A stretch of 64,000 bases of DNA from Fibrobacter sp. (GTDB lineage: Bacteria > Fibrobacterota > Fibrobacteria > Fibrobacterales > Fibrobacteraceae): assembly GCA_017412605.1 (NCBI GenBank), contig JAFPWY010000007.1:180239-244238 (forward strand). The letters run 5' to 3'. Made by a program: the position numbers and the translations under genes. This document shows, one piece after another, positions 7,129-21,499 of this stretch (within the stretch, counting starts at the first letter, position 1; each line of letters starts with the position of its first letter). The notes beneath the pieces are model-generated. The model ran no database searches and had not been told where the DNA came from. It was given only the letters and a program-made list of their open reading frames with translations.

Positions 7129-7833
7129 CTACACCTGCATGTTTTCTAGCTTCAATTTACGGCGCTGCCAGTCGGGCATACGGGTTTCCAGCAGACGATA
7201 GAACTTTTTATCGTGGTTCGGGTATTTCAGGTGACACAATTCATGCACCACAACATACTCGATGCATTCCTTCGGGGCGGCAATCAACTTTGTATTTAAG
7301 GTCAATATACCGCCTTTAGAGAGCGAACCCCAGCGGGTTTTCATGTCGCGGATCTGCAGGCGAGGAGACTTAGAAGAATGCGAAAAACGAGCCATACAAG
7401 CCAAAAAAACATTCTCGAACTGCACCTTAGCACGCTCACGCAACCATTCATCAAGAAGTTTCTTCACAGTTGCGGGGCGAACATCCGCAGAAATAACCCT
7501 AATGAACCCGCCATCGATTTTCACCAAGCGTTCTTTATCTTTTTCGATTTTTAATCGATAACGGCGCCCCAAATACAAGTGTGTCTCGCCACCAAGATAT
7601 TGCCTTGGAGGAGGCGCTTTAGGAAATTTTGCGAACCAGTCCTGCTTTTCAACAATCCACGGAGCCTTTTTCTGCACCTTCTGCGCGATTGCTTCGAGCT
7701 TCGCCCCCTGCGGAGCCCGCACCTGCACGGCACTATCGGGCATTACAGAGATTTCCAGTGTCTTGCGACGGCAAAATTCAACCTCGTATACAATCTCGCG
7801 GTCTCCATATTTAACAACGTTCAGCTCATTCAT
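7129..7833 (-). CDS. M48/YgjP-like (DUF45) zinc metallopeptidase associated with type I RM
   Basis: MKTRWGS, YVVVHELCHL (HExxH), HDKKFY. ATG at 7833 overlaps the hsdR stop. Confidence 0.9.
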   Translation of the reverse strand: MNELNVVKYGDREIVYEVEFCRRKTLEISVMPDSAVQVRAPQGAKLEAIAQKVQKKAPWIVEKQDWFAKFPKAPPPRQYLGGETHLYLGRRYRLKIEKDKERLVKIDGGFIRVISADVRPATVKKLLDEWLRERAKVQFENVFLACMARFSHSSKSPRLQIRDMKTRWGSLSKGGILTLNTKLIAAPKECIEYVVVHELCHLKYPNHDKKFYRLLETRMPDWQRRKLKLENMQV

Positions 7834-10800
7834 GCGAACGCCGCCTTGCCACATTCATGATTTTCTCTTCCAGGGAATCAATGTCCGCATTCGTCCAGTC
7901 AAAACGTTCCCGGACACAAATATCATCGAACAGGAGGTCATCTAGTTCGTTTCGCACTCTGTTTTGTGCGTCCGGATCGTTCCAGAATTGCACCTTGTGA
8001 TGTTTTTTCAGCGCTTCAATAACGAATAAGGCTGTTTCTACGGCAAGCCGTTTGGCTTCTGCCGTATCGCACTTGTTTCCATACAAGAACGCTGTCAGTG
8101 CGACACCATAGTATGCGGCGGCATCTTCGTTTTCGCTGATTTCTGCCGGAACGTCATCACGTTTCTTGCTTTTGAAATTTTCCTCCAATCCTTTCACCTT
8201 GGAGAGATATTCATCTTCCGAAATCTTACCCGCCTGGAAACTGTCGATGACATCCTGAATCATCTTCGAGAATTTCTCGTAGAAGGCGGGATCTTCTTCC
8301 ATCTTTTCGGTTGCGGTTTTCTTGAGCATGTGCGCTATTGTATCAGCACTCGCCGCCTTGCCACGAGCATCATAGCTGCCTTTATCATCACTCAATATCT
8401 GGGTAAACTTCGGATCCAAAATATTCACAGGTGCTACAGTCTGCACCACATTATCCGACTGGATGTGCGTATCGAGCAACTTCTTGATTTTCGGTTCATA
8501 CTCGCTGTAGTCCACATCGTCGGCATAGCGGTGCTTTACAGACACGCGCATGTCCGAGAACATCTTGAACTCCCTGCGAAGCCGCGTCATATCTTCAGCT
8601 GGGGTCTTTTCCAGGAACTTCTGCGACGACATCGCGATACTCAGGCACTTTCCGAAATCTCGCAGGGCCTTGTAGAAATCGTTACGGCGTTTTTCATCGG
8701 CCAAGTGGCGTTCCATCTGTTCGGGGTCAGCCTTGTTCTTGACACCCCTGAAAACGTCCCACAGATTAGAGCGCAACTGCGGCAACTTGTCCACAAGTTC
8801 CGACACATCGGTCAGCAAGCCTTCCAAATCTTCGGGGTCAAAACCTTCCAGCGCCTTGTACATCACAAGCGCCGTATCTAGGTTGTCGCGAACGTTGGCG
8901 TAATCTACGATATAACCGAAATCCTTCTTCTTGCCGTTTTCCTCAAACAAGCGATTCACGCGCGCAATCGCCTGCAACAACGTATGTTCCTTGAGCGTGC
9001 GGCAAAGATACAGAACTGTGTTGCGTTCGGCATCAAAGCCCGTCAGCAACTTGTCACAGACAATCAGGATTTCCGGCTTACCTGGGCCCTTGAAACCATC
9101 AATAATCGACTTATTATACGAATCCTCGTCGCCATAGCGATCCATCATCTTTGTCCAGAATTTCGTCACTCGGCTAGTCGGTTCTTCGCCCACTTCCGAA
9201 TAGCCTTCGCGCTCATCGGGGCCCGAAATGATGACTTCAGAACTCACATGGCCAATTTCATCCAAGAATTCATGGTACAGAATAGCCGTTTCCTTGCTCG
9301 GTGCGACAAGTTGAGCCTTGAACGGAGTATCCTTCCAGTTTGCACGGAAATGTTCACTGATGTCAAACGCACGCATATACACGACACGTTCCGCCTTGTT
9401 CAGCATCTCGGCCCGTGCATATTTCTTCTTAAGATCGGCCTTCTGCTTGTCCGAAAGACCTGCCGTAAAGCGTTCAAACCAAAGGTCAATTGCAGCCTTG
9501 TCCTGTTTGAGTTCCGCATGGCGTCCCTCGTAAAGCAAAGGCACCACGGCGCCATCTTCGTTCGCTTGCCGGATAGTGTAACTCGGCTTGAGCATCCCGC
9601 CGAACTTGCCGAAACTGTTCTTTTCCTTCTTCATTAGCGGCGTGCCCGTAAAGCCGATATAGCAGGCATTCGGAAGCATCTGTTTCATACGCGCATGCAA
9701 GCTCTTGTATTGCGTACGGTGCGCTTCGTCCACTAGCAAAAAAATGTTGTTTGATTTTTCAACGTACTGGCGTTTGTTCAGCGCCTTGTCGAACTTGTTG
9801 ATAACAGTCGTTATCACGGCAGAATTGTCCGACGCCATAAGGTTGAGCAAATTTTCGCCCGAGGTCGCCTTGATGACCTCCGCACCACAATTTTTGAAGG
9901 TGTCGCATATTTGCGAATCCAATTCCTTGCGGTCGGTAACTAACACGACTCGCGGATTTTTGATATTACAATCGGGGTCATACGTCGAATCCAGCACGAT
10001 TCCGCGAGCAAGCATCACCATCGAAAGTGATTTACCTGAGCCCTGTGTGTGCCACACCAAGCCGCCCTTGCGCTTATTTTCGTTACCAATATTCCGAATA
10101 CGTTTTAACGCCGAATGGACCACAAAGAATTGCTGGTAGCGGGCAATCTTCTTTATTCCCTCATCGAACAGGGTAAAGCGATAGGCGATTTCAAGCAGGC
10201 GTTCAGGCTTGCACAGGCAATAAATCAGCCTGTCCTGTTCCGTCACTACACGCTTTGTCTGCGGATTATTCTTACGGAACGGCGCCAGTTTCGGCACCGA
10301 GAAAATCCTATCTTCATCTTCGGCAGAGACCTTTTTGTTAATCGCAGCTTCGATTTCCTTATCCTTGATTTCAAGCTCGTGCCAAAGGCTCCAGAACTTT
10401 TCGGGAGTCCCTACGGTGGAATAAGTCGCCGCATTCATGCTCACCGACAAAAGCGCCTGGCAAAAAACGAACAATCCCGGAATATATTCGTCGCCTTGAT
10501 TGCGAATCATCTGGGAAATGCCCTGTTTGATTCCTTCTTCGGGAGACTTATTCTCGATGACTGCAAACGGGATTCCGTTCACAAACAGCACGATATCAGG
10601 GATAACACGGGCATTGGATTTCGAGCATTCCACATCAAATTCGGCAACCGCATGGAACACATTGTTCGCCGGTTCCTGCCAGTCGATATAGCGAATGTCG
10701 TAACTGCGCTTGTCGCCCTCGACAGATTCCTCTTCGGATTGCGGGAGCGTGAGCAGGTCATATATCTTTGCATTCGTACGCACCAGACCATCGTACTGCA

Positions 10801-11053
10801 TGTTCTTGAGTTTCAGGATTGCATTGCGCAAATTCTCTTCGCTAAAGTCACGACGGACACCCTTGTGCGTAAATGAGTTCAACTTACGCAACTGCGAGAG
10901 CAGAATATCTTCGAGCAACACATTGGCAAGCTTGTCCTTACGCTCCAATGTCACCTCTTCGGGCGTAAGCGGCTTGAACCCGAGATTCGCCAGCAGCCGC
11001 ATCGCCGGAATCTGCGATGTCGGAATTTCTCTGTAATCAGGCTGTTGTTGCAT
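7826..11053 (-). CDS. hsdR: type I restriction endonuclease subunit R
   Basis: PDIVLFVNGIPFAVIENK nuclease motif, WHTQGSGKS Walker A, DEAHR, GFTGTP, DKLLTGFD, LLQAIARVNR. Confidence 0.97.
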   Translation of the reverse strand: MQQQPDYREIPTSQIPAMRLLANLGFKPLTPEEVTLERKDKLANVLLEDILLSQLRKLNSFTHKGVRRDFSEENLRNAILKLKNMQYDGLVRTNAKIYDLLTLPQSEEESVEGDKRSYDIRYIDWQEPANNVFHAVAEFDVECSKSNARVIPDIVLFVNGIPFAVIENKSPEEGIKQGISQMIRNQGDEYIPGLFVFCQALLSVSMNAATYSTVGTPEKFWSLWHELEIKDKEIEAAINKKVSAEDEDRIFSVPKLAPFRKNNPQTKRVVTEQDRLIYCLCKPERLLEIAYRFTLFDEGIKKIARYQQFFVVHSALKRIRNIGNENKRKGGLVWHTQGSGKSLSMVMLARGIVLDSTYDPDCNIKNPRVVLVTDRKELDSQICDTFKNCGAEVIKATSGENLLNLMASDNSAVITTVINKFDKALNKRQYVEKSNNIFLLVDEAHRTQYKSLHARMKQMLPNACYIGFTGTPLMKKEKNSFGKFGGMLKPSYTIRQANEDGAVVPLLYEGRHAELKQDKAAIDLWFERFTAGLSDKQKADLKKKYARAEMLNKAERVVYMRAFDISEHFRANWKDTPFKAQLVAPSKETAILYHEFLDEIGHVSSEVIISGPDEREGYSEVGEEPTSRVTKFWTKMMDRYGDEDSYNKSIIDGFKGPGKPEILIVCDKLLTGFDAERNTVLYLCRTLKEHTLLQAIARVNRLFEENGKKKDFGYIVDYANVRDNLDTALVMYKALEGFDPEDLEGLLTDVSELVDKLPQLRSNLWDVFRGVKNKADPEQMERHLADEKRRNDFYKALRDFGKCLSIAMSSQKFLEKTPAEDMTRLRREFKMFSDMRVSVKHRYADDVDYSEYEPKIKKLLDTHIQSDNVVQTVAPVNILDPKFTQILSDDKGSYDARGKAASADTIAHMLKKTATEKMEEDPAFYEKFSKMIQDVIDSFQAGKISEDEYLSKVKGLEENFKSKKRDDVPAEISENEDAAAYYGVALTAFLYGNKCDTAEAKRLAVETALFVIEALKKHHKVQFWNDPDAQNRVRNELDDLLFDDICVRERFDWTNADIDSLEEKIMNVARRRSHE

Positions 11054-11066
11054 AGATTACCTCGTT

Positions 11067-11091
11067 GTCATCCCTGCAAATGCGAGAATTC
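11067..11091. repeat. degenerate REP-like palindrome upstream of hsdR
   Basis: GTCATCCCTGCAAATGCGAGAATTC resembles the GTCATYCCCGCGAARGCGGGAATCY palindrome family. Confidence 0.4.
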
Positions 11092-11162
11092 TTTTCAATG
11101 TCACAATTGGAGATGCAGTCTTGAAATTGTCAAAATCTTTTCTTCTTACAATCTTTTGAAAT

Positions 11163-12428
11163 TCAAATAGATCCATCTACGTCATCATTATTATTTGTAT
11201 CTTCATCATTCGCGCCTAATATTTCAGGATAACCTAAATCTCTTTGCATTTCCAAATCATCAAATCCATGTCTTGAATTCTTTAGTTTTGATTCATAAGA
11301 TGGAACGACAAGAGAATTAGTTAGGCGTTCTCCTAAATGATTTAAAAAACCAAGTCTTTCTGTACTGGGTGAGCATTTTGAAAATTCACTTATTCCTGAC
11401 CATGCTTCATATTCAGGCATTCTTATTGATTGTATAATATCTATAGCAGGTTTAAATGAATCCGTTAATCCCCTTACAGCTGAGAACGAGTCTAATACTC
11501 TTTCTGGGAAAATAGACGCTTTTAATGAAAGTCCAACCTCATCAATTGTTCTTTCCGCTGTATTTTTCTTTTCTTGTTCTGTGATATCAACTTTGTCTAA
11601 TTTAGCGATCGCATCGTTGAGAATTTTTTGCATTTCCTCGCATTTTTTCAAACATTCTTCACATTCATTTTGGGGAATAATTCGATTATGTGCAACATCA
11701 CACCGATATTCATATAATTTTTCCCAATTAGACTTAAATTTTTCTGAATCGCAATCAACGAGGACGTTGAAATATCTATCCCAATTGTTTTTTGGAATAA
11801 ACAATCTTAATTCCTTCTTTTCTTCTTCCGTAATCTCTTTATCGATACATTTTTTTAATTCGTCAACTATGCTACCACTCTTATCAGCATAAGGGATTGT
11901 TAGAAAATAAGAGAGTTGAATGAAATCAAGATGATAAAGACAATCATTATTCCATTTATATTCACCTTTTACAGTATTTTTTACATCTTGAGGTGTTGCT
12001 TCATACCATTTCATTCCCAAAGTTTCAAGCATAAATTTGGAAACCAATTTACGGATAGAATTTTCTAATGTATAAATATTTGAGTACAGTTTTTCGGAAC
12101 GATTTTTAGCAAAGTCATTTCGAAGTTCAAGAATTGCAATATTTTTCTGATTTTCATCTTTAATATTGCTAATTACCTGACGAAACATTTTTAATAATTT
12201 TGTGGGCTCGTTATCCGAATCAGATGAAAAAGTAATAGCATAAACAACACCTTCGGAATCTTTAGTCTTCTTTTCCGATATTTTGATCTTACTTTGTTCA
12301 TTTTCATAAGATAATGTGTCTTTGACTAAAGATAAGTCTGATGCGTCCAAGAACGACCTCAATTTCGCCTTGCTTTTGCATGTAACACACTTAGAGCTTA
12401 CTGAAAAAATGTATTCGATTTCTTTCAT
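11163..12428 (-). CDS. HEPN-domain protein (putative RNase effector)
   Basis: IYTLENSIRKLV..DFIQL..NWDRYF..WEKLYEYRCDVAHN: R-x4-H motif in a helical domain; AT-rich. Confidence 0.7.
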   Translation of the reverse strand: MKEIEYIFSVSSKCVTCKSKAKLRSFLDASDLSLVKDTLSYENEQSKIKISEKKTKDSEGVVYAITFSSDSDNEPTKLLKMFRQVISNIKDENQKNIAILELRNDFAKNRSEKLYSNIYTLENSIRKLVSKFMLETLGMKWYEATPQDVKNTVKGEYKWNNDCLYHLDFIQLSYFLTIPYADKSGSIVDELKKCIDKEITEEEKKELRLFIPKNNWDRYFNVLVDCDSEKFKSNWEKLYEYRCDVAHNRIIPQNECEECLKKCEEMQKILNDAIAKLDKVDITEQEKKNTAERTIDEVGLSLKASIFPERVLDSFSAVRGLTDSFKPAIDIIQSIRMPEYEAWSGISEFSKCSPSTERLGFLNHLGERLTNSLVVPSYESKLKNSRHGFDDLEMQRDLGYPEILGANDEDTNNNDDVDGSI

Positions 12429-12441
12429 GTCACACCTGCCT

Positions 12442-12522
12442 TTATTTTTCTCAACACTGTTCGGTAAGAAATTTTTGCATCAAACTTTGTTTCTGCCTTT
12501 TGAAATTCATAGATTGTTGCAT
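12442..12522 (-). pseudogene. decayed copy of the hsdS 3' end (81 bp)
   Basis: Translates MQQSMNFKRQKQSLMQKFLTEQC*EK* versus HsdS C-terminus MQQLENYKKQKQGLMQKLLTGQWRVK*; 61/81 nt identical to 14068-14148 by manual gap-free alignment. Confidence 0.85.
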
Positions 12523-12532
12523 AATTGAGCCC

Positions 12533-13294
12533 TTAAAAATCTTTTATATCAATAAAATTATAACCACGCAGCAATAGAACATTTAATTTCAAACACAAAT
12601 TATGATTGTTCTTCCATATTTCATCAACAGTAGAGATTGGTAAGCCTATAGACAAGTTATCATTGCAAAAGAGTTTAAATTCATTCTCTGATTTATCAAT
12701 CCATTCATAGGTCCATTCTGCCTGAGCATTTCCCATAGGAGTTGGATAAATACGAACCTTGCTCCGTTCAGGAATGAATTTCTTCAATTTAAGATACATC
12801 GCTCTTGTTTTATTATCCATCATTCTCTTTTCCACCTCTTCAAATATCATAAAATGATTGCCATATTCCGTTCGATACGGGAAACTATATTGTCGCCTAT
12901 CTCTATCTAGGCAAACGCCAACGAGGTTAATCGAAGGTTCAGTATTTACAGCAGCAATAAGATTGCCAGAAACCACAATTGGTACAACTTGAACATCTAT
13001 TTTGGGAGAAACCAAATCAAGAATATGTGTAAAAACACACTTCTTTATTTCTTCAGCATCAACATTAGGTGCAAAACCTGAAGCAACCCTTAAGCCATTT
13101 ATCTTTTTTTCAGCCACACCTATTAACAATGTTCCACCGTATGTATTGGCGAAAGCAGCCAAATCGATAGCGATATTATCAGGTTCTTTGAGATTAAACA
13201 TCTGCTTATAATCCCAATGAATTCCTTCTGGAGTCTCGCCCATGCGGATGAGACTTTCAAAATCTTGCGCAGTTTTAAAAGGTTTGTAAAGCAT
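12533..13294 (-). CDS. Schlafen/AlbA_2-domain protein with unknown C-terminal domain
   Basis: GETPEGIHWDYK..DLAAFANTYGGTLLIGVAE is a typical AlbA_2 signature. Confidence 0.8.
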   Translation of the reverse strand: MLYKPFKTAQDFESLIRMGETPEGIHWDYKQMFNLKEPDNIAIDLAAFANTYGGTLLIGVAEKKINGLRVASGFAPNVDAEEIKKCVFTHILDLVSPKIDVQVVPIVVSGNLIAAVNTEPSINLVGVCLDRDRRQYSFPYRTEYGNHFMIFEEVEKRMMDNKTRAMYLKLKKFIPERSKVRIYPTPMGNAQAEWTYEWIDKSENEFKLFCNDNLSIGLPISTVDEIWKNNHNLCLKLNVLLLRGYNFIDIKDF

Positions 13295-13296
13295 AA

Positions 13297-14058: not shown

Positions 14059-14067
14059 ACAATTCCC

Positions 14068-15231
14068 TTATTTAACTCGCCATTGCCCGGTGAGGAGTTT
14101 TTGCATCAAGCCTTGTTTCTGCTTTTTGTAATTTTCAAGTTGCTGCATGAGAAGCGTACTTTCTTGATTCATTGTATTTAAAACAGAGACAATTTTCTGT
14201 TGTTTCTTTAAATCAAACTTTGGAATTTTGATTTTACATAAATCACCAAATCCAACTGTTTCACGAACGCTTCCTTGAGCACTATTTTTTATGCGTTGTT
14301 TAGCTTCGCTAGAATTAAGCCAATGTAAAAGAAAATCAGAATCAAGTTGCTTTTGATCTCCGATTTCAAATACAGTATACATTGGACTGATTACAGCCTC
14401 TTTCCAATCGTTTAATCGTGCTATAGACCCAACATTTATTCTTGACGGATTGTATGCATATTGTCCTAAACGAACAATCTTGTAATTAGATAGGTTTTCG
14501 CTAGCAACTTTTCTATCAAATTGTTCTTCTGGCAAGACAAAACCCTTGCTGTTACTAACGCTTAATACCTGTTGAATTTTTTCATCTTTATTTCTTTCTG
14601 AAACTTCCGTCAAAAATGTTCCTAATTCAGCATATGCATCACTCGTTATTGAAGTGGCTAAGAAACAAGCATAGGAATTTTCTTTCGCTTCGACGAGTTT
14701 TTCCATTTTTTCAATGGCGGAGTCCCAGACTGAAAGCGTCGCCGCAATCTTCTTCTGTTCTTCAATCGGAGGCAAATCTAATGGTATCTTTTTGATAATT
14801 TCTGCACTTAAATTCTTTTGCCCTCCATCATTGCTCAAATTTCGAATATTTTCATAATGGAATAAAAAATATTGAAACAAATAAGGAGTCAACACTTCGT
14901 CTTCTTTCAAATGAAATGCTGCACAAGCTTGATTGATTGTCGCATCTATATCAAGAATAGCAACTTGTCCCCTAGTTTTTCCCTGCCCATACATAGCCAT
15001 CAACAATGTTCCTTTTGGAACAATCTTTGCAGAAGACTCATTTACACCTAATTCCGTAATATACTCATCTACCTGATCTTTTGAAATATGCCCGTTTTGA
15101 ATTTGAGCGGTTTTCACCCAAGGAATATTGCCATTCCAATATTCAGATTGCGTCCTCAAAGGTGTACCACCAGATGTCACTTTGGCGACATCCCCCAATT
15201 TCACTTTTTTCCATCCATTAGGCAGCATCAT
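14068..15231 (-). CDS. hsdS: type I RM specificity subunit S (two TRDs)
   Basis: LPNGWKKVKLGDV, SGGTP, IPWVKT, LPPIEEQKKIA, second TRD, KQKQGLMQKLLTG terminus. Confidence 0.95.
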   Translation of the reverse strand: MMLPNGWKKVKLGDVAKVTSGGTPLRTQSEYWNGNIPWVKTAQIQNGHISKDQVDEYITELGVNESSAKIVPKGTLLMAMYGQGKTRGQVAILDIDATINQACAAFHLKEDEVLTPYLFQYFLFHYENIRNLSNDGGQKNLSAEIIKKIPLDLPPIEEQKKIAATLSVWDSAIEKMEKLVEAKENSYACFLATSITSDAYAELGTFLTEVSERNKDEKIQQVLSVSNSKGFVLPEEQFDRKVASENLSNYKIVRLGQYAYNPSRINVGSIARLNDWKEAVISPMYTVFEIGDQKQLDSDFLLHWLNSSEAKQRIKNSAQGSVRETVGFGDLCKIKIPKFDLKKQQKIVSVLNTMNQESTLLMQQLENYKKQKQGLMQKLLTGQWRVK

Positions 15232-17290
15232 TCTTTACTCCTAAAATCTTATTTATAGTTCTAATCAAATAATGAAGTGAGAAAACACTTGGTGACAATG
15301 GGCGCTCAGCCTCATTGAACTCCCTTTTTGCCTCGTTCAATAGCCGTTCTAAGAATTCTTTTTCTTTCTCTAAACGGTTATGGTTTTCATATCTCTTTTC
15401 AATCGCTTTTCTCAATGTGCTATTTCGATCTCGCTTAACGCCTTTGTATACCTCGCAAAATTTAACAACATCAACATCTGAAAAACAAAAGACATCAGAT
15501 TCGCCATATTGCATTGATATTTGAGAACAAGCAAGATTAAACCCATCGTAATCATCTCCCAACAAACGTTGGCAAAAAGCGTTTATTGCAGCGTCCCGAC
15601 GTTCACTCGTTTTATTTTTCAAAATATTACATAAAAAGGCAAGAAATTGATCATTCTTTTCCTCATATACCTTATAAGTATCTAAAAAAGGTAGTCGTTC
15701 TTTCCAATCATCCATTCGTTCATCGTCAAGTTTATCCTGTATTGATTTAACGTATGAAATCATCTTTTCTTCAAATTCTTCAGCAGTAAATTCAAATGCA
15801 TTATTCTTAGCATACCAATATATTCTATAGAACAAATCCATTATAAGAGACGGACTTTTTAAAGTTTTTGTATTTTCTATACAATTATTAAAAATTTTGA
15901 GCGCTTTATTTCCTTCGTCATCATCCAAAAAAGACCACTCAAGCATTTTCTTTAAATACGCTTCTTCTTCTCCGCCATACCATATTGAAGTCTTTATAAG
16001 GTCATTAACTTTTTTAAAATCAACTTTGTTTTCAAGCAACCATTTTTTCCATATTTGCAACCATTCATTGGCAAACGAAGACTCGTGTAAGGAAGTAAAT
16101 TTTTCCACTCCTCCAAATAATTTCTGAAAATTTTCTTCTTCATCTGGTCTCTGATTGCAAGGAGCAATAGTCCATGTAACAGCAGTTGCTTTTTCATCTA
16201 GAGGATTTGTTTGTAGTTGTAATTTCCCCTTTTTCTGGTGACGTTCCAAAGCGTCATCCATAGCCTGAGTCATGACATTTGAAATTTTATTCGGCTTGAG
16301 TAAACCTAAATAATAAGCATATTGGTACACAAAAAAATCTGCAACTAGCAATTCATTGCATTTTCTTTTTTCTAAGTTCTCCTTCGAAATGTTTTTTATA
16401 AATCTTTGAAAATCGATTAGGGAGTGTTTTAGTGAACGAAAATTCGGCACACCGGAAGCATCAAATACATTAGCAACAATCCCTCGATAGTCCTTTAAGA
16501 AATTATATGCATCATTACCTAGAATGTGGTGTTCTTCGTTAAACCAACAGTTCCAAACATCATCAAATGTCGTTTGTATTTGGAATTCTTTACCTATTAC
16601 CTTTTCCTTAGTACTTGACAAATGGTGAAGAGTCGATTTATCTTCTTGACATTTTTGTGCTTCTTCCCATCTGTCCTTATCTGCAAGCAGAATACAAGGA
16701 ACATGCAAGTGTTCCACATAGTCGTTCAGATACCCCAATAATTCAGGAAGGGGCATGTCAGCTCGTTCAACATCGTCAAAAACGACAACGAGTTTTTTAT
16801 AGTTTTTTTTATCAATTCTGATTTTCTTTAGAAAATCATTTGAAAAAAACTTTAATGATTCCCCAACAGCTCTTCCCGTTGCGATTGCGGCTGGAAGTAC
16901 TACAGATGCCGCTGGCGCACCAGCTGCGATTGCTGCCGTCCCTATCTTTGCGCCAACAGCAACTACAGCAAGATTTCCTACCAGCGACACTGCATTAGGA
17001 TGACAAAATAACTTTCTTAGCCCTAACTTTGGGCGAAAAACCTCTTGAATTTTTTTGTCAATTTCATCGCGATTTTTCAGTCCAAATAAACTTACATACA
17101 CAACCGTATATTTTACGCAGTCTGTTAGCCAATCTTTTATTTCTTTTCTATCGCCACCAAGATACTGCCTAATGAAATATGTCTTGCCAGAGCCCCAACA
17201 GCCCGTAATCAACACAGCGTAATCGGGAGACTGCTCCTCATTCAGGTAATTATTCAGGAATTCTTTAATGTGCTTGTTGCTATTCTCCAT
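15218..17290 (-). CDS. KAP-family P-loop NTPase
   Basis: YAVLITGCWGSGKTYF (Walker A), YVSLFGL, LVVVFDDVER (Walker B), KEKVIG; hydrophobic Gly/Ala insert within the NTPase domain. ATG at 17290 preferred over TTG at 17302. Confidence 0.85.
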   Translation of the reverse strand: MENSNKHIKEFLNNYLNEEQSPDYAVLITGCWGSGKTYFIRQYLGGDRKEIKDWLTDCVKYTVVYVSLFGLKNRDEIDKKIQEVFRPKLGLRKLFCHPNAVSLVGNLAVVAVGAKIGTAAIAAGAPAASVVLPAAIATGRAVGESLKFFSNDFLKKIRIDKKNYKKLVVVFDDVERADMPLPELLGYLNDYVEHLHVPCILLADKDRWEEAQKCQEDKSTLHHLSSTKEKVIGKEFQIQTTFDDVWNCWFNEEHHILGNDAYNFLKDYRGIVANVFDASGVPNFRSLKHSLIDFQRFIKNISKENLEKRKCNELLVADFFVYQYAYYLGLLKPNKISNVMTQAMDDALERHQKKGKLQLQTNPLDEKATAVTWTIAPCNQRPDEEENFQKLFGGVEKFTSLHESSFANEWLQIWKKWLLENKVDFKKVNDLIKTSIWYGGEEEAYLKKMLEWSFLDDDEGNKALKIFNNCIENTKTLKSPSLIMDLFYRIYWYAKNNAFEFTAEEFEEKMISYVKSIQDKLDDERMDDWKERLPFLDTYKVYEEKNDQFLAFLCNILKNKTSERRDAAINAFCQRLLGDDYDGFNLACSQISMQYGESDVFCFSDVDVVKFCEVYKGVKRDRNSTLRKAIEKRYENHNRLEKEKEFLERLLNEAKREFNEAERPLSPSVFSLHYLIRTINKILGVKNDAA

Positions 17291-19037
17291 CTCCGCCCCC
17301 AAATAAGTCTAGCGTTTCCGAATCTTTTTTCTTTTTCGTGCTGTTAGTAACTTTCTTAACCGATGTCTTGTTGGCGTCAACAAAACGTCCTTTCTCGTGC
17401 ACCCAGTGCCCATTCTTCGATGCACCTTCCCATACAAAGCCTAACTTTTGGAGGTCTCGCAGGATTGTCAATTTTGTTACGCCGAACATAGTCGCCAAGG
17501 CATCTTTTGATATCATAGAATTCACGCTAACAACCTGCAAAACCTTTTCGGTTCTTGATACATTCTTTTCGTTTTGAGTATCATTTAGGGCATCATTTTG
17601 ACTATCACTTTGGGTATCATTTTGAGATACATTTTGGGTATCAAACCAATATCCCTTTTTAGGCGCACCTTTCCAAACATAGCCCATTTTCTTCAGATAG
17701 CGACGAACCGTAATTTCGCTTAATTCCAGTGTTTCTGCTATGGTTTTTACAGAAACACTGTTGCTTTGAACAACAAGTTCTTTTATACGGAACGCCCGCT
17801 TTTGACTATCATTTTGGCTATCACTTTGACTATCATTTTGAGGTGCATTTTGGGTAACAATTTTGCCATTCAACTTGTTCAGCGGGAAGGTCACAACCGT
17901 ATATCCAGTCTGCTCACTCCAGAAGGGTTGGGGTGAATTTTCCGCCTTGCAAGCATCCATTATGCGCTTGATACCCGAGCCCCATTTTTCCAAATATGTA
18001 GTTTGGTATAAGACGTTCGCAAGGACTTCGTTTCGCGGGAACGATTGGTGCGACCGCTTGATAGTTTTCGGAGTCAGTTCATGTGGCAACAAACCGGGGC
18101 TTTCAATTTCTATACGGTCATCGTAAATGGCGATGCCGATAGAGCACTGGTGAATGTCGTAATCCCTATGGCAAAGGGCATTGATTAGAGCCTCACGCAA
18201 CGCAGCTACCGGAACATCGAGGTGTTCTTCCCTTTTGAGCCCCTTGATTTCACCGCTCAGGGACAGGTGCTTGAAGAAGAAGCCCATACCCGCATCCAGC
18301 AAATCAAAGAAATTGCCGTGGGCCTGCTGGTTATCGATAAAGTAGTTCTTATCGGTCCCCCGGAAGCGGGCCATCCGAAGTAGATATTCAAACGAGAACT
18401 TCTTTGAAAAAAGAAACACCGCGGCGTTCCTCACATTATCGCCATCCAACAGGTTCCATTTTTTCAGTATTACTTTAATCGGCTCATTGAGCGACCCCAC
18501 CGGAATTCGTTTTTCTTCGACGCCGAGACGCACAACCCCACGAATCGTGCCGGCGTTAAGATCCTTTATGCTATACCCTTCGGCAGTCCTCATTTCCCAT
18601 GAATACTGGTGGGGCATATTAATGCGAATCCGCTCATCAAACATATCCCTGGGCATCGCCTTGGTGACGCTCTCCAGTCTATAATATGGCTTCCCGTGGA
18701 ATGTGTATGGCTTTTGCCCATAGACCCACGGATTGAACCTCAGCACGATTACCTGGAGGTTCGGCTTGCCGGAAATATCTACATATTCAATGACGGGCGT
18801 AACTGCAGGTTCGATCCCCGCCAAAGCCTGCGCGATATCGCGGCGGGTAGATTCTGAAACAATCTGCCCGACAATATTCAAGGAGGGTGTGACACCGAAA
18901 ACGAGAACTCCGCCATCGGAATTCAAAAAGGCACATGCCGTATGCATGCCTTCACGAAGTTCACCGGTAGATTTCTTCAACTCGACATTCTTCGTCTCGT
19001 CTTTAGAAATCAGTTTTTTGAGTTCATCCAGTGTCAT
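17280..19037 (-). CDS. Schlafen/AlbA_2 + HATPase_c_4-type domain + two tandem winged HTH modules
   Basis: ETKNVELKKS, CAFLNSDGGVLVFGV, ALREALINALCHRDY, YDDRIEIESPG, RNEVLANVL, EKWGSGIKRI; two C-terminal HTH-wing repeats ending GYVWKG..GYW and GFVWEG..GHW. Confidence 0.85.
   Translation of the reverse strand: MTLDELKKLISKDETKNVELKKSTGELREGMHTACAFLNSDGGVLVFGVTPSLNIVGQIVSESTRRDIAQALAGIEPAVTPVIEYVDISGKPNLQVIVLRFNPWVYGQKPYTFHGKPYYRLESVTKAMPRDMFDERIRINMPHQYSWEMRTAEGYSIKDLNAGTIRGVVRLGVEEKRIPVGSLNEPIKVILKKWNLLDGDNVRNAAVFLFSKKFSFEYLLRMARFRGTDKNYFIDNQQAHGNFFDLLDAGMGFFFKHLSLSGEIKGLKREEHLDVPVAALREALINALCHRDYDIHQCSIGIAIYDDRIEIESPGLLPHELTPKTIKRSHQSFPRNEVLANVLYQTTYLEKWGSGIKRIMDACKAENSPQPFWSEQTGYTVVTFPLNKLNGKIVTQNAPQNDSQSDSQNDSQKRAFRIKELVVQSNSVSVKTIAETLELSEITVRRYLKKMGYVWKGAPKKGYWFDTQNVSQNDTQSDSQNDALNDTQNEKNVSRTEKVLQVVSVNSMISKDALATMFGVTKLTILRDLQKLGFVWEGASKNGHWVHEKGRFVDANKTSVKKVTNSTKKKKDSETLDLFGGGDGE
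17572..17639 (-). repeat. 12-bp coding minisatellite (QND/QSD tetrapeptides), block 2
   Basis: ACCCAAAATGTA TCTCAAAATGAT ACCCAAAGTGAT AGTCAAAATGAT GCCCTAAATGAT ACTCAAAA on the minus strand. Confidence 0.85.
17800..17855 (-). repeat. 12-bp coding minisatellite (QND/QSD tetrapeptides), block 1
   Basis: ACCCAAAATGCA CCTCAAAATGAT AGTCAAAGTGAT AGCCAAAATGAT AGTCAAAA on the minus strand. Confidence 0.85.
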
Positions 19038-19046
19038 TGAATAGCC

Positions 19047-20615
19047 TTACCCCCGCTTTATCTCCTTCAGTTTCTGGGCCATCTGCTTGCGGACTTCGGC
19101 AAGTTCCTTTTCGAGGCGGTCGATATCCTTCTGCACGGCATCCACATCGATAGGAGCTTCTTCTTCGAAGGTGTCCACATAGCGCGGGATGTTCAGGTTG
19201 AATTCATTGCCCGCAATTTCGTCGAAAGAGGCGACATGGGCGTACTTGTCCACATTCTTGCGCTTCTTGTAGGTGTTCACAATCTTCGAGATGTTCTCTT
19301 CGGAGAGCGAATTCTGCTTTTTGCCCTGCACAAATTCACGGCTTGCGTCAATGAACAGCACGTCCTTGCGCTTTGCGTTCTTGCCGCCGATTTCACGGCT
19401 GCGGTCGAATACCAGAATCGCCACGGGAATGCTCGTGGTCGGGAAAAGGTTTTCGGGGAGGCCGATTACCGCATCCAGCAGGTTTTCGCGAATCATCGCT
19501 TCGCGGATTTTGCCTTCGGAAGAACCGCGGAACAGCACGCCGTGAGGCACCACGACAACGACACGGCCTTCGCCCGCAAGGCTCGTCTCGACCATATGCG
19601 TAATGAAGGCCCAGTCACCCTTGCTTTTGGGCGGAATACCACGGAAAAAGCGCTTGTAGGGGTCACTTTCGGCATTTTCAGCGCCCCATTTGTCGAGGCT
19701 GAAAGGCGGATTCGCAACCACCACATTGAATTTCATCAACTTGTCTTTTTCGACAAGCATCGGGCTGTTGAGCGTATCGCCCCATTCAATGCGGGCGCTA
19801 TCGGTGCTGTGCAAGAACATATTCATGCGGCAAAGTGCCCATGTGCTGCCGTTTGATTCCTGACCAAACAAGGCGTAGTTGCCGCTCGGCACCTGCTTCG
19901 CACCCTGCAAAAGCAAACCACCCGCACCACATGTCGGGTCGCAAATCTTGTCGCCATCCTTCGGGGCCGCAAGTTTCGCCACGAGTTCGGTAACAACAAA
20001 CGGTGTAAAGAATTCACCCGCCTTCTTGCCCGCCTCGGCACCGAAACGTTCCAACAGATACATGTAGGTGTTGCCGATGATGTCTTCGGAAACGCGACTC
20101 GGCGACATGTCGAGTTCTTCTTTGTGGAAGTCTTCGAGCAGCGTGCGCAGACGACGGTTGCGGTCCTTCGTCTTGCCGAGATTCGGCTCGGAATTGAAGT
20201 CAATATTGCGGAACACGCCTTCAAGCTTGAGCCTGTTCTGCGTTTCAATTTTGTCGAGAACGATGTTGATTAAATCGCCGATGTTATCTGCAGTGCGGCG
20301 TTCGTAAAGGCTGTAATAGTCCGCGACAAACTTGTCGATGACCTTGCCTTTCTCGTTCTTGATTTCTACCATCGGGAGTACAAAACGTTCGCGCTCCAGT
20401 TTGCGGAGGATTCGCGCCTCGTCGCCGCCGTATTGTTTGCCATAAGCGTCGTAATGGTCGCGCCAAACATCCGACATATACTTCAAGAACAGCATCACCA
20501 GAATGTAGTCCTTGTACTGCGCCGGATCAACCGCCCCGCGGAAGGTATCGCACGCGGCCCAGGCGGCAGCGTTGATGGCATCTTGCTTGATTTTTTCGCT
20601 TTTCACTTCACTCAT
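19047..20615 (-). CDS. hsdM: type I RM methyltransferase subunit M (m6A)
   Basis: LRGAVD-like FRGAVD, GEFFTP, DPTCGAGG (motif I), VVANPPF (motif IV), GVLFRG. Confidence 0.97.
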   Translation of the reverse strand: MSEVKSEKIKQDAINAAAWAACDTFRGAVDPAQYKDYILVMLFLKYMSDVWRDHYDAYGKQYGGDEARILRKLERERFVLPMVEIKNEKGKVIDKFVADYYSLYERRTADNIGDLINIVLDKIETQNRLKLEGVFRNIDFNSEPNLGKTKDRNRRLRTLLEDFHKEELDMSPSRVSEDIIGNTYMYLLERFGAEAGKKAGEFFTPFVVTELVAKLAAPKDGDKICDPTCGAGGLLLQGAKQVPSGNYALFGQESNGSTWALCRMNMFLHSTDSARIEWGDTLNSPMLVEKDKLMKFNVVVANPPFSLDKWGAENAESDPYKRFFRGIPPKSKGDWAFITHMVETSLAGEGRVVVVVPHGVLFRGSSEGKIREAMIRENLLDAVIGLPENLFPTTSIPVAILVFDRSREIGGKNAKRKDVLFIDASREFVQGKKQNSLSEENISKIVNTYKKRKNVDKYAHVASFDEIAGNEFNLNIPRYVDTFEEEAPIDVDAVQKDIDRLEKELAEVRKQMAQKLKEIKRG

Positions 20616-21232
20616 AGCGACTCCAGATATTTTGAAATTTCCGTTTCTAAAATTAAGTTCTTTTGCTTGACAATTTCTGCCATAATCTCATGTTCTTTCC
20701 GGCCAAGTTTTACAAGGTCGGCAATAGCCTGCTGCGCATTTAAACTGGGCAACTTGATAGGCATTTGCTCCAAAACGCCCTTGCTCACCAGCGGAATGCC
20801 GGAACCCGTCGCAAACTCCTTAAAATAGGCCGCACCGTACGCCCCATTTATATACCACGCCAGGTATTCTGGCGAAACCAATTCGCGATTCAAACGGATG
20901 CGAATCATCGGGGCAACAACCAACAGTTTTTCGGTGATTTCAGGAACAACCGCCGCCATAAACGGCGTGCCACGCGAACGGAAGATAAGGTCCCCTCCCG
21001 CGGCAAAGTGTGAGTCATTTGGGTTGACGTTTTCCACGCGTTTCAGGTTCTGCAATTTCAATTCGCCCGAGTCGTCCACATCGCGCAGAAAGCACGCAAG
21101 CGTTCCCGATTCTCCAGGAACACACGTGTTGCGGAAGGGGTAACCTACCGAAAGCAGGGCAACATCGCGCAGCGATACCGTATGCGATTTCGACAAGCCA
21201 AGGGCGTTCTTTGACACATTTTCAAAGTCCAT
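20612..21232 (-). CDS. half-size (single-TRD) HsdS-like protein
   Basis: GDLIFRSRG, PEYLAWYIN, LEQMPIKLPSLNAQQAIA + coiled coil; ATGA overlap with hsdM. Confidence 0.8.
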   Translation of the reverse strand: MDFENVSKNALGLSKSHTVSLRDVALLSVGYPFRNTCVPGESGTLACFLRDVDDSGELKLQNLKRVENVNPNDSHFAAGGDLIFRSRGTPFMAAVVPEITEKLLVVAPMIRIRLNRELVSPEYLAWYINGAYGAAYFKEFATGSGIPLVSKGVLEQMPIKLPSLNAQQAIADLVKLGRKEHEIMAEIVKQKNLILETEISKYLESL

Positions 21233-21461
21233 GCCCTAAATATACCTTATTCGCCTCTAAAATGCAAATAATTTTGTAGTATTTCAAATACTAACACAGA
21301 CAGACATTTAAAAATGGCGATTTTAGCAAAATTTCAGCATTTAATATAGAAAAACCGCCTTATCCTATGTAGCAAATACAGAAAATCTAAAATTTTAGTC
21401 ACAATTTCACGTCAAATTGGCCTTTTTGGCGTTTTTTAGGCAATTTTTTAGAAAAAGAACG

Positions 21462-21496: not shown

Positions 21497-21499
21497 CAG

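What the first reader, a model, noticed from the sequence alone, without database searches (positions are those of the whole stretch)
7129..21232. Type I RM operon used as a scaffold for five interleaved candidate anti-phage genes
Seen: a co-oriented, mostly overlapping or tightly spaced run: halfS-hsdM-[AlbA_2/HATPase/2xHTH]-[KAP NTPase]-hsdS-[HEPN-like]-[AlbA_2]-[HEPN]-hsdR-M48. The cargo from 11163 to about 17290, including hsdS, is much more AT-rich than hsdM (spot check 17/60 GC at 11761 vs 37/60 at 19501). Known: type I RM loci host second-line defences such as PrrC/RloC, which are HEPN anticodon nucleases; HEPN, Schlafen and KAP domains are recurrent defence modules. Inference: this is a multilayer defence island, and the combination of two Schlafen, two HEPN and one KAP gene inside one RM operon may be an undescribed RM-guarding or backup system.
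Basis: partly seen in the sequence, partly recalled or inferred. Interest (0 to 1): 0.85.

Follow-up and report, generated by a model that had tools for sequence, protein, structure and literature searches.

The report
Restriction operon as swappable defence-gene hotspot
A type I restriction-modification operon of a rumen Fibrobacter carries five extra candidate anti-phage genes, but related genomes show these are independently swapped cassettes in a known kind of defence hotspot, not one new five-gene system.

Summary
Ten co-oriented, tightly spaced minus-strand genes (7129-21232) form halfS-hsdM-[Schlafen/GHKL/2xHTH]-[KAP NTPase]-hsdS-[HEPN]-[short Schlafen]-[HEPN]-hsdR-YgjP. The block from the 421-aa gene to the KAP gene has 32-36% GC, against 52% for the genome.

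In about 25 related Fibrobacter loci the backbone is constant (hsdM 89-100% and hsdR 77-99% amino-acid identity). Everything between the hsdM stop and the hsdR start is a mosaic drawn from a shared cassette pool: PsyrTA, fused PARIS AriAB, PDC-S02, -S05, -S13 and -S49, DUF3800, CdiA_C and others.

No other locus with the whole hsdM-hsdR interval has the window's five genes together, and each occurs without the others. They are therefore independent modules, not one system.

An 84-nt relic of the hsdS 3' end (12439-12522) marks cassette accretion. One sequencing run holds the cargo at 99.8% identity on a backbone only about 95% identical.

Gene embedding in type I RM is already described (Payne 2024), as are bacterial Schlafen and KAP defences (2026). 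Three cargo families remain unnamed: the 253-aa HEPN protein, the 253-aa Schlafen found only between hsdS and hsdR, and the 421-aa HEPN-like protein. This is a new member of a known kind, of moderate interest.

The parts
21239..21343 (-). Conserved upstream leader or promoter region of the island. It contains a sigma-70-like site at 21268-21239.
   Evidence: Similarity to sibling loci starts about 110 nt upstream of halfS (W about 21342-21344) in L004, L044, L045, L049 and L052. The promoter-like hit is, but the total number of hits there is not above chance.
20612..21232 (-). Half-size HsdS (206 aa, one TRD). It is part of the conserved backbone.
   Evidence: Pfam Methylase_S 1.5e-5; PADLOC Specificity_I 1e-15. 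It is 58-99% identical in loci with the close backbone.
19047..20615 (-). hsdM, the type I methyltransferase. It forms the conserved left arm.
   Evidence: N6_Mtase 1.3e-98, HsdM_N 2.5e-23, TIGR00497 1.5e-85. It is 89-100% identical at the amino-acid level in 16 other species genomes. Nucleotide similarity to siblings ends at its stop codon, 19045-19048.
17280..19037 (-). Cargo 1: prokaryotic Schlafen (AlbA_2) fused to a GHKL-type HATPase_c_4 domain and two winged-HTH units.
   Evidence: The Schlafen motif Ex4ExK is present as ETKNVELK at residue 14. The architecture corresponds to the 'HisKinase-HTH' pSlfn class (PMC13056530). It is present in only some siblings: L045, L049, L050, L056-L058.
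15218..17302 (-). Cargo 2: KAP-family P-loop NTPase with a hydrophobic insert and a C-terminal region of about 350 aa with no recognised domain. The true start is probably the ATG at 17290.
   Evidence: KAP_NTPase 3.9e-16; PADLOC PDC-S49 1.2e-80. Walker A is GCWGSGKT at residue 34 and Walker B is LVVVFDD at 171, with a hydrophobic segment at about 103-145 between them. KAP genes of several subtypes (30-89% identity) sit at the end of slot A in most siblings, directly before hsdS in most of them.
14068..15231 (-). hsdS, full length with two TRDs. It lies inside the variable, AT-rich segment and its TRDs are mosaic.
   Evidence: Methylase_S 4e-39, two stretches. It is only 26-68% identical across siblings. 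The N-terminal half is 89% identical in nucleotides to L050, and the C-terminal half 92% to L046 and 87.5% to L013.
13297..14058 (-). Cargo 3: 253-aa protein with an N-terminal helical domain and a C-terminal HEPN domain (RNLCDH at 222-227).
   Evidence: AF2 pLDDT 85.5. The best Foldseek hits are HEPN proteins 1o3u, 2hsb, 1wol and 5yep, with prob 1.0 and TMt 0.56-0.73 but E only 0.05-0.3. 12 of 43 homologues hit Pfam HEPN and 2 hit DUF4145. R222, N223, C225, D226 and H227 are invariant. The family has more than 4300 members across phyla and can stand alone (L008).
12533..13294 (-). Cargo 4: short prokaryotic Schlafen (253 aa), an AlbA_2 nuclease core plus a C-terminal domain of about 110 aa with no recognised family.
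   Evidence: SLFN_AlbA_2 5.7e-14, 53 bits against a cutoff of 25. E23, D28 and K30 are invariant and form Ex4DxK. Every locus examined, about 20 on three diverged backbones, has it between hsdS and hsdR. It occurs in 7 of 151 family genomes. 421 cluster representatives, mostly 250-300 aa, match at E<=1e-3 in 1.84 billion.
12439..12522 (-). Non-coding relic of the hsdS 3' end, upstream of the 421-aa gene. It is a footprint of cassette accretion.
   Evidence: It matches 14065-14148 at 75% identity over 84 nt (D2). It aligns with functional hsdS 3' ends of L009, L011 and L013, where the 421-aa gene follows hsdS directly, and with a more decayed relic in L048.
11163..12428 (-). Cargo 5: 421-aa protein with an N-terminal ferredoxin-like alpha/beta domain (1-104), a helical Swt1-like HEPN-type core (105-283; RCDVAHN at 242-248) and a disordered tail (284-421).
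   Evidence: AF2: the N-terminal domain has pLDDT of about 88 and the tail below 50. HEPN_Swt1 scores 1.6e-3, below threshold. The same family is hit by relatives P0264 and HEPN364. PDC-M34B scores 4e-9 over 83 residues only. E122, N123, R126, R242, H247 and N248 are invariant. Its position relative to hsdS varies. Relatives at 27-39% identity lie mostly outside RM.
7826..11053 (-). hsdR, the type I restriction subunit. It forms the conserved right arm.
   Evidence: HSDR_N, SWI2_SNF2, T1R_D3-like; TIGR00348 2e-131; PADLOC REase_I 1e-187. Nucleotide similarity to siblings resumes at 11044-11063, at the hsdR start codon.
7129..7854 (-). YgjP-like (M48/WLM-type) zinc metallopeptidase, the last gene of the conserved backbone. 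The island ends at its stop codon.
   Evidence: YgjP-like 2.3e-60; HELCH motif. Similarity to loci with other chromosomal flanks ends at 7129.
21499..21588 (-). tRNA-Ser(GCT) with its terminator (21462-21497), directly upstream of the island. This is context, not part of the operon.
   Evidence: ARAGORN; terminator-like hairpin.

Best explanation
The locus is one type I restriction-modification operon: halfS, hsdM, hsdS, hsdR and a YgjP-like peptidase. In rumen Fibrobacter this operon serves as a recombination-anchored hotspot for defence cassettes.

The conserved hsdM and hsdR genes act as homologous arms, and so does the conserved 3' end of hsdS. The 6-11 kb between the arms is an AT-rich mosaic that includes hsdS itself. 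It is assembled from a shared pool of one- and two-gene cassettes that are exchanged between strains, species and even different type I backbones.

The window's five cargo genes are five separate modules expressed with the RM genes:
1. A Schlafen-GHKL-2xHTH protein.
2. A membrane-inserted KAP NTPase (PDC-S49).
3. A HEPN RNase-type protein.
4. A short Schlafen nuclease.
5. A protein with a ferredoxin-like domain followed by a Swt1-like HEPN core.

Shown here: the anatomy, the domain content, the catalytic-type motifs, the mosaic exchange and the breakpoints.

Inferred: each module senses infection on its own, and four of the five shut down translation by cutting tRNA or other RNA. They would act as a second line of defence when DNA restriction fails.
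For: Operon anatomy and domains.

Mosaic cargo: 28 of 151 family genomes carry an hsdM homologue, 16 of them at 89-100% amino-acid identity. The cargo maps of L001-L014, L044-L058 and L064-L072 show a constant backbone with non-identical cargo sets.

Breakpoints: nucleotide similarity stops at the hsdM stop codon (19045-19048) and at the hsdR start codon (11044-11063) in nearly every locus with the close backbone that spans those junctions. L003 shares the chromosomal flank at 96-98% nucleotide identity but has entirely different cargo and a different hsdS.

Cassettes cross backbones: in L005, L013 and L068, hsdM is 54% and hsdR 40% identical, yet the cargo is 76-87% identical at the nucleotide level.

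hsdS-tail relic.

Run X14: the cargo block 11023-14145 differs at 1-4 positions per contig piece (about 99-99.9% identical), while hsdR and hsdM are about 95% identical.

Composition: the cargo segment has 35-41% GC against 49-53% for hsdM in all 18 loci measured.

Defence identity of the pool: PsyrTA 6e-248 and 5e-72, AriAB 3e-119, and PDC-S02, -S05, -S13 and -S49.

Catalytic-type motifs: Ex4(E/D)xK in both Schlafens (motif defined in PMC13056530). Invariant Rx4H in both HEPN-type proteins. HEPN fold for the 253-aa protein.

Published experiments on the classes: bacterial Schlafens are phage-activated tRNases (PMC13056530). KAP NTPases fused to unknown C-terminal regions defend Enterococcus faecalis (PMC13552941). 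Embedding in type I RM predicts defence (bioRxiv 10.1101/2024.01.29.577857).
Against: No function was tested here, and no Fibrobacter phage data exist for these genes.

The HEPN assignment of the 421-aa protein rests on sub-threshold Pfam hits and a motif. Foldseek matched only its N-terminal domain, weakly.

Foldseek E-values for the 253-aa protein are weak (0.05-0.3), even though prob is 1.0.

Co-transcription is inferred from gene spacing. The promoter and terminator scans are not above chance: 30 against 27.7+/-5.5, and 19 against 14.7+/-4.2.

Run X14 is only guessed to be RNA. It is also contig data, which could mix strains.

Two HisKinase-type pSlfns were among the seven systems tested in E. 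coli, and only the DUF262 and Ig-like fusions gave protection (PMC13056530).

The short Schlafen has never been seen outside RM, which would fit functional coupling to RM rather than full independence.
Confidence: 0.78

Rival explanations
1. One reading: the two Schlafen, two HEPN and one KAP gene form one integrated, previously undescribed RM-guarding system.
For: All five are co-oriented and tightly packed in one operon. L071 repeats the order KAP-hsdS-HEPN-Schlafen-421aa-hsdR.
Against: No other locus that covers the whole hsdM-hsdR interval has all five.

KAP occurs with BroN, PsyrTA or KilA-N instead of the Schlafen-GHKL gene. The short Schlafen occurs without KAP (L009, L012, L048, L066). 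The 421-aa gene occurs without either Schlafen (L011, L072). The 253-aa HEPN protein and relatives of the 421-aa protein stand alone outside RM.

L003 has the same chromosomal site and the same backbone but a different cargo set.
Confidence: 0.04
2. PrrC-like guard. The slot-B RNase-type genes, above all the short Schlafen, are held inactive by the type I RM complex. They are released when a phage anti-restriction protein disables the complex. They would then be RM-dependent effectors rather than autonomous modules.
For: Every one of about 20 loci holding the short Schlafen places it between hsdS and hsdR, on three diverged backbones. It is never elsewhere in 151 genomes.

In sibling loci L046, L049, L050 and L054 the same slot holds a fused PARIS AriAB. 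PARIS is triggered by the anti-restriction protein Ocr and cleaves tRNA (PMC11464382).

PrrC is always linked to, and silenced by, a type I RM enzyme (PMC3458546, PMC2610378).
Against: The close family is confined to one genus in which the RM operon is the hotspot, so linkage may only reflect where cassettes land.

The proteins have no ABC-ATPase domain.

Relatives of the 421-aa protein, and the one distant relative of the 253-aa HEPN protein whose context was examined, lie outside RM.

Confidence: 0.18
3. The 253-aa HEPN gene and the 253-aa Schlafen gene form an obligate two-gene module, either sensor-effector or toxin-antitoxin.
For: The two genes are 2 nt apart. They travel together as one block of about 80% nucleotide identity in the window, L001-L007, L053, L064, L069 and L071, on two different backbones.
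Against: The Schlafen is instead preceded by other genes in other loci: an unrelated 334-aa protein (L009, L013), a DUF2806 protein (L048, L052), a 364-aa HEPN (L012), or an AAA_21-methyltransferase (L068). In L066, L067 and L070 it follows hsdS directly.

A 54%-identical HEPN homologue stands alone with no Schlafen nearby (L008).
Confidence: 0.15
4. The cargo is not defence. It is regulatory or selfish ballast that merely hitch-hikes in the operon, for example the HTH protein as an operon regulator and the RNases as addiction toxins that stabilise the island.
For: The Schlafen-GHKL protein carries two DeoR-type wHTH units. Bro-N, KilA-N and ORF6N DNA-binding proteins occupy the same slot in siblings. 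HEPN proteins are frequent toxins of TA pairs (structures 5yep and 6m6u).
Against: The same slots hold validated defence systems, PsyrTA and PARIS. No antitoxin-like partners (MNT) are present. Published experiments support defence roles for the Schlafen and KAP classes (PMC13056530, PMC13552941).
Confidence: 0.08

Closest known systems
Genes embedded in type I RM, BREX, DISARM or Hma systems ('guilt-by-embedding', Payne et al. 2024, bioRxiv 10.1101/2024.01.29.577857; PADLOC PDC candidates)
   Same: Co-oriented extra genes are nested between hsd genes. The KAP gene matches PDC-S49. Sibling cargo matches PDC-S02, -S05 and -S13, PsyrTA and AriAB.
   Different: This work resolves a genus-level population of one backbone. 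It shows exact exchange breakpoints, a duplication footprint of the hsdS tail and up to about 10 embedded genes per operon. Three of the window's cargo families have no convincing match in PADLOC v2.
PrrC / RloC anticodon nucleases linked to type I RM (PMC2610378, PMC3458546)
   Same: HEPN-type Rx4H proteins are encoded inside a type I RM operon, so a role as a backup to restriction is plausible.
   Different: There is no N-terminal ABC-ATPase domain, the accessory domains are different, and there is no sequence match. Relatives of the 421-aa and 253-aa HEPN-type proteins occur outside RM.
Prokaryotic Schlafen defence nucleases (pSlfn; Perez Taboada et al. 2026, PMC13056530)
   Same: Both AlbA_2 proteins keep the Ex4(E/D)xK motif. 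The 585-aa protein has the commonest type of architecture, pSlfn with HisKinase-like and HTH domains.
   Different: The 253-aa protein is a minimal Schlafen with an unannotated C-terminal domain of about 110 aa. So far it has been seen only between hsdS and hsdR. Neither protein has been tested.
KAP P-loop NTPase defence proteins (PifA; EF_KAP and relatives, PMC13552941)
   Same: The P-loop domain has a hydrophobic insert between Walker A and Walker B, followed by a C-terminal region of more than 300 aa with no recognised domain.
   Different: No sequence comparison with EF_KAP or PifA was made here. The Fibrobacter proteins are RM-embedded and fall into several subtypes of 30-89% identity.
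Defence hotspots flanked by conserved genes, and P2/P4 hotspots that carry PARIS (stated from my own knowledge, not checked here)
   Same: Conserved flanks surround highly variable defence cargo of lower GC, which is exchanged by recombination.
   Different: Here the flanks are themselves the subunits of a working defence system, and its specificity gene lies inside the exchanged segment.

Membership tests
Type I restriction-modification system | HsdM (N6-adenine MTase with HsdM_N), HsdS with two TRDs, and HsdR (nuclease plus SF2 motor), all in one locus | tested here: met
   N6_Mtase 1.3e-98; Methylase_S x2 4e-39; HSDR_N, SWI2_SNF2 and T1R_D3; TIGR00497 and TIGR00348 above their cutoffs.
PrrC/RloC anticodon nuclease | N-terminal ABC-ATPase domain fused to a C-terminal HEPN-type ACNase | tested here: not met
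   None of the three slot-B proteins has a P-loop or ABC hit in Pfam, NCBIfam or PADLOC.
PrrC/RloC anticodon nuclease | Obligate linkage to a type I RM locus (PrrC) | tested here: inconclusive
   The feature is met for the short Schlafen clade: about 20 of 20 loci. It is not met at family level for the 421-aa protein, where none of the 38 distant loci except L111 (an hsdM fragment) had a recognisable hsd gene beside it. It is also not met for the 253-aa HEPN protein (L008).
HEPN superfamily | Conserved Rx4-6H motif | tested here: met
   253-aa protein: R222 and H227 are invariant in 43 sequences. 421-aa protein: R242 and H247 are invariant in 23 sequences.
HEPN superfamily | Four-helix HEPN fold | tested here: inconclusive
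   253-aa protein: the top Foldseek hits are HEPN structures (prob 1.0, TMt 0.56-0.73) but E is 0.05-0.3, and 12 of 43 homologues hit Pfam HEPN. 421-aa protein: no HEPN structure appears among the top hits, and Pfam HEPN_Swt1 is below threshold. hhalign of the two families aligns the motifs without significance.
Prokaryotic Schlafen (pSlfn) | AlbA_2/Slfn nuclease domain above the Pfam threshold | tested here: met
   64.7 and 53.1 bits against a cutoff of 25.3.
Prokaryotic Schlafen (pSlfn) | Catalytic Ex4(E/D)xK motif (PMC13056530) | tested here: met
   ETKNVELK at residue 14 and EGIHWDYK at residue 23. E23, D28 and K30 are invariant in 34 homologues.
Prokaryotic Schlafen (pSlfn) | Phage-triggered tRNA cleavage and protection | not testable with these tools
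   Needs wet-lab assays.
KAP NTPase / PADLOC PDC-S49 | KAP P-loop domain with a hydrophobic insert between Walker A and Walker B; match to the PDC-S49 model | tested here: met
   KAP_NTPase 59.6 bits against a cutoff of 20. PDC-S49 1.2e-80. Walker A at residue 34 and Walker B at 171, with Kyte-Doolittle hydropathy above 1.6 for windows spanning about 107-142.
PADLOC PDC-M34 (two-gene candidate) | Both the A and the B protein present, with full-length matches | tested here: not met
   Only a partial match to the B model was found: 83 residues, 4e-9. There was no A match.
Integron or site-specific cassette platform | Integrase or recombinase and attC-like sites at the cassette junctions | tested here: not met
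   The flanking genes are housekeeping: GGDEF, a TPP enzyme, a sulfatase, tRNA-Ser, PBP1, TauE and NhaA. No terminal or junction repeats were found other than the hsdS-tail relic. Exchange therefore looks homologous rather than site-specific.

The most novel reading that the evidence does not exclude
The short 253-aa Schlafen family, and possibly the HEPN-type genes that share its slot, is an RM-dependent guard. It would be an ATPase-less functional analogue of PrrC that docks on the type I RM complex through its C-terminal domain of unrecognised family, and turns into a tRNase when a phage anti-restriction protein disables the enzyme. The hsdS-hsdR slot would then be a dedicated 'anti-anti-restriction' position, where this gene alternates allelically with fused PARIS AriAB. 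Because hsdS lies inside the exchanged segment, a single recombination event would reset both the restriction specificity and the backup effector.
Probability: 0.15. Interest if true: 0.75.

Novelty: new member of a known kind. Interest (0 to 1): 0.45.

Why it matters
The locus is a clear natural example of how a restriction operon collects and reshuffles second-line defences. The conserved enzyme genes act as recombination arms, the specificity gene and the cargo move together, and the junction footprints are still readable.

It also yields three compact, uncharacterised RNase-type candidates whose genomic position alternates with validated systems (PARIS, PsyrTA). They are a 253-aa HEPN protein from a family of more than 4300 members, a minimal Schlafen known only from inside type I RM operons, and a protein of about 430 aa with a ferredoxin-like domain and a HEPN-type core. 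All three are cheap to test.

For rumen microbiology, the result shows that Fibrobacter species share a mobile, low-GC defence gene pool.

Tried and rejected
- PDB sequence searches for the three slot-B proteins gave nothing useful.
- Foldseek on the 421-aa model matched only its N-terminal ferredoxin-like or ACT-like domain, weakly.
- hhalign between the two HEPN-type families aligned the Rx4H motifs but without significance: probability 0.06%.
- The PDC-M34 lead: the supplement gives only family numbers, and the match is partial. I rejected it as an identity.
- The short Schlafen has no relatives in the viral contig collection.
- The genome-contig scan returned only 5 loci, all from rumen or ruminant-gut MAGs: four labelled Fibrobacter, and one 3-kb contig in a bin labelled uncultured Alphaproteobacteria.
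- I looked for terminal repeats, target duplications or recombinases at the island ends (7129 and about 21343) and found none.
- The promoter and terminator scans are not above chance.
- The 13-bp direct repeat noted earlier: one copy lies inside the hsdS-tail relic and the other overlaps the stop codon of the 421-aa gene. Only 13 exact bases match, so chance cannot be excluded in AT-rich DNA.
- Evidence of transcription from run X14 is not solid, because the run type is only guessed.

Full report
**1. Observation**

They are separated by -29 to +109 nt. Pfam, NCBIfam and PADLOC confirm the gene order:

- half-size HsdS, 20612-21232
- HsdM, 19047-20615
- an AlbA_2/HATPase_c_4/2xHTH protein, 17280-19037
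- a KAP NTPase, 15218-17302
- a full HsdS, 14068-15231
- a 253-aa protein with no Pfam hit, 13297-14058
- a 253-aa AlbA_2 protein, 12533-13294
- a 421-aa protein with a sub-threshold HEPN_Swt1 hit, 11163-12428
- HsdR, 7826-11053
- a YgjP-like metallopeptidase with an HELCH motif, 7129-7854

The block from the 421-aa gene to the KAP gene, including hsdS, has 32-36% GC (GC3 0.24-0.31). hsdM has 53%, hsdR 49% and the whole genome 52.1%. Fewer than 5% of 1-kb genome windows are this AT-rich. A tRNA-Ser(GCT) and its terminator lie directly upstream. The other flanking genes are housekeeping.

**2. The individual cargo genes**

*(a) The 585-aa protein.* It has the Schlafen catalytic-type motif Ex4ExK, as ETKNVELK at residue 14. 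Its architecture corresponds to the 'pSlfn-HisKinase-HTH' group, the second most frequent composition (19.2%) in the survey of prokaryotic Schlafens (PMC13056530).

*(b) The 694-aa protein.* It matches PADLOC PDC-S49 at 1e-80. It has Walker A and B motifs with a hydrophobic Gly/Ala-rich insert between them. KAP NTPases fused to unknown C-terminal regions were shown in 2026 to be antiphage proteins (PMC13552941).

*(c) The first 253-aa protein.* It belongs to a family of more than 4300 clusters spread across phyla.
- R222, N223, C225, D226 and H227 are invariant.
- 12 of 43 homologues hit Pfam HEPN and 2 hit DUF4145.
- The AlphaFold model has pLDDT 85.5.
- Its C-terminal half best matches HEPN structures 1o3u, 2hsb, 1wol and 5yep (prob 1.0, TMt 0.56-0.73, E 0.05-0.3).

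*(d) The second 253-aa protein.* It is a minimal Schlafen.
- Its Pfam AlbA_2 score is above threshold.
- E23-x4-D28-x-K30 is invariant.
- It has an unassigned C-terminal domain of about 110 aa.
- An exhaustive HMMER search found 421 cluster representatives at E<=1e-3, mostly 250-300 aa. Only one of these clusters is more than 50% identical.

*(e) The 421-aa protein.*
- The N-terminal ferredoxin-like domain is well modelled, the middle is a helical core, and the tail is disordered.
- E122, N123, R126, R242, H247 and N248 are invariant.
- Its HEPN assignment is probable, not proven.
- The database gene call of 395 aa misses a conserved and structured N-terminus.

**3. Comparative genomics, the decisive evidence**

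hsdM homologues occur in 28 of 151 genomes of the family. Sixteen other species representatives carry hsdM at 89-100% amino-acid identity. I mapped the cargo of about 25 distinct loci from genomes and metagenome contigs.

The backbone halfS-hsdM...hsdS...hsdR-YgjP is constant, while hsdS is only 26-68% identical. The slots hold different genes in almost every locus:

- *Slot A (hsdM to hsdS):* Bro-N, ORF6N, KilA-N, CdiA_C plus a 71-aa ORF, Schlafen-GHKL-HTH, DEAD-PRTase plus DprA, DUF3800, and KAP of several subtypes.
- *Slot B (hsdS to hsdR):* the HEPN and short-Schlafen genes, the 421-aa gene, ORF6N, RhuM, YhcG, AAA_21-DUF4435, AAA_21-methyltransferase and others.

PADLOC identifies several of these alternatives:

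| Alternative cargo | PADLOC match |
|---|---|
| DEAD-PRTase plus DprA | PsyrTA (6e-248 / 5e-72) |
| AAA_21-DUF4435 | fused PARIS AriAB (3e-119) |
| YhcG | PDC-S02 |
| RhuM and ORF6N | PDC-S05 |
| Bro-N | PDC-S13 |

No other locus that spans the whole interval has the window's five genes, and each gene occurs without the others. L003 shares the window's chromosomal flank (96-98% nucleotide identity) and its backbone, but has a different hsdS and a different cargo set.

**4. How the mosaic arises**

- Nucleotide similarity between the window and nearly every close-backbone sibling that spans those junctions stops at the hsdM stop codon (19045-19048) and resumes at the hsdR start codon (11044-11063).
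- Cargo cassettes 76-87% identical in nucleotides also sit in a second backbone, whose HsdM is 54% and HsdR 40% identical (L005, L013, L068).
- The 84 nt upstream of the 421-aa gene (12439-12522) are a decayed copy of the hsdS 3' end (75% identity). In L009, L011 and L013 the 421-aa gene directly follows a functional hsdS. The HEPN and Schlafen genes therefore entered together with a fresh hsdS tail, by recombination in that conserved tail. L048 keeps a more decayed relic.
- One sequencing run (X14) holds contigs in which 11023-14145 differs from the window at only 1-4 positions per piece, while hsdR and hsdM are about 95% identical. The switch lies within 30 nt of the hsdR start, and the other end lies inside hsdS.
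- In all 18 loci measured, the inter-arm segment has 35-41% GC against 49-53% for hsdM.
- The whole island ends at the YgjP stop codon (7129) and about 110 nt upstream of halfS (about 21343). It sits next to at least seven different chromosomal neighbours, with no recombinase or terminal repeats.

**5. Sub-module questions**

The HEPN and short-Schlafen genes are 2 nt apart and travel together in about ten loci. However, the Schlafen also follows four unrelated genes, or hsdS directly. A 54%-identical HEPN homologue stands alone. The pair is therefore not obligate.

The short Schlafen is found only between hsdS and hsdR, in about 20 of 20 loci on three backbones. It occurs in 7 of 151 genomes and never elsewhere. 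This keeps a PrrC-like guard model alive.

For the 421-aa protein, 38 relatives at 27-39% identity in environmental metagenomes have no recognisable hsd gene beside them. The one exception is an hsdM fragment in L111.

**6. Mechanism**

Shown: this is one compact operon whose conserved RM genes bracket an exchangeable segment of independent cassettes.

Inferred:
- The RM enzyme restricts incoming DNA.
- The two Schlafens cut tRNA, by analogy with PMC13056530.
- The two HEPN-type proteins cut RNA, by analogy with the Rx4H chemistry of PrrC, RloC and HEPN toxins.
- The KAP NTPase acts at the membrane through its C-terminal region of unrecognised family, by analogy with PMC13552941.

Together they would give several backup layers, each triggered on its own. 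The PARIS alternative in the same slot is triggered by the anti-restriction protein Ocr and targets tRNA (PMC11464382). This fits the theme of a backup for failed restriction.

**7. Comparison with known work, and novelty**

Embedding of defence genes in type I RM operons, and its use for discovering new defences, is published (bioRxiv 10.1101/2024.01.29.577857). So are PrrC (PMC2610378, PMC3458546), bacterial Schlafens and KAP defences.

This locus is therefore a new member of a known kind. New here are the genus-level picture of cassette exchange with exact breakpoints and a footprint, and three cargo families without names or tests.

**8. Limits**

- No experiments were done.
- Co-transcription is not shown.
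- The HEPN call for the 421-aa protein is weak.
- The evidence from run X14 rests on contigs.

Noticed in passing
window 7129 and about 21343; L001, L009, L011, L044, L047, L049-L054, L064: The whole RM island has sharp ends, at the YgjP stop codon and about 110 nt upstream of halfS. In different Fibrobacter species it lies next to at least seven different chromosomal neighbours: GGDEF, RecQ, an RND pump, urease and others. There is no integrase, no terminal repeats and no target duplication. How the island moves is unexplained.
   Followed up: partly
window 19047-20615 (hsdM) compared with G112, G085, G084, G089, G100 and others: HsdM is 98-100% identical at the amino-acid level between representatives of different species. 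This implies recent horizontal spread of the backbone within the genus.
   Followed up: partly
window 17560-17874: Two blocks of 12-bp tandem repeats lie inside the Schlafen-GHKL-HTH gene. They encode QND/QSD-type linkers, one before each of the two HTH units (repeat finder family D1).
   Followed up: no
window 11163-12428: The public gene call for this ORF is 395 aa. The 26 extra N-terminal residues of the 421-aa ORF are conserved in homologues and form a confident beta-strand, so the ATG at 12428 is the likely start.
   Followed up: yes
window 14068-15231: hsdS is a TRD mosaic. Its N-terminal half is 89% identical in nucleotides to L050. Its C-terminal half is 92% identical to L046 and 87.5% to L013. 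The whole-gene amino-acid identities to these loci are 60-68%.
   Followed up: partly
window 20612-21232: A half-size hsdS with one TRD overlaps the hsdM start by 4 nt and is conserved in all backbones. These RM systems therefore encode two different specificity subunits.
   Followed up: no
L009 3874-4612; L051 4310-5048: A CdiA_C toxin-domain ORF (178 aa) followed by an overlapping 71-aa ORF, possibly an immunity gene, is embedded right after hsdM in some sibling operons.
   Followed up: no
L066 2434-9991: A sibling operon on the diverged backbone carries seven embedded genes between hsdM and hsdS: Bro-N, a DpnII/MboI-type nuclease, an AAA_21 ATPase plus DUF4145 (a HEPN-type domain), a metallo-beta-lactamase-fold protein, a 167-aa ORF and a dCTP-deaminase-like protein. 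McrBC and a NERD protein lie downstream.
   Followed up: no
L075 and L076 (one environmental contig, at positions 62155 and 137428): The same 15-kb stretch, holding a distant relative of the 421-aa protein, appears twice on one 375-kb metagenome contig. This is either a large duplication or a repeated element.
   Followed up: no
L013 17166-17766: A PhD/YefM-ParE toxin-antitoxin pair sits directly downstream of YgjP in the second-backbone loci.
   Followed up: no
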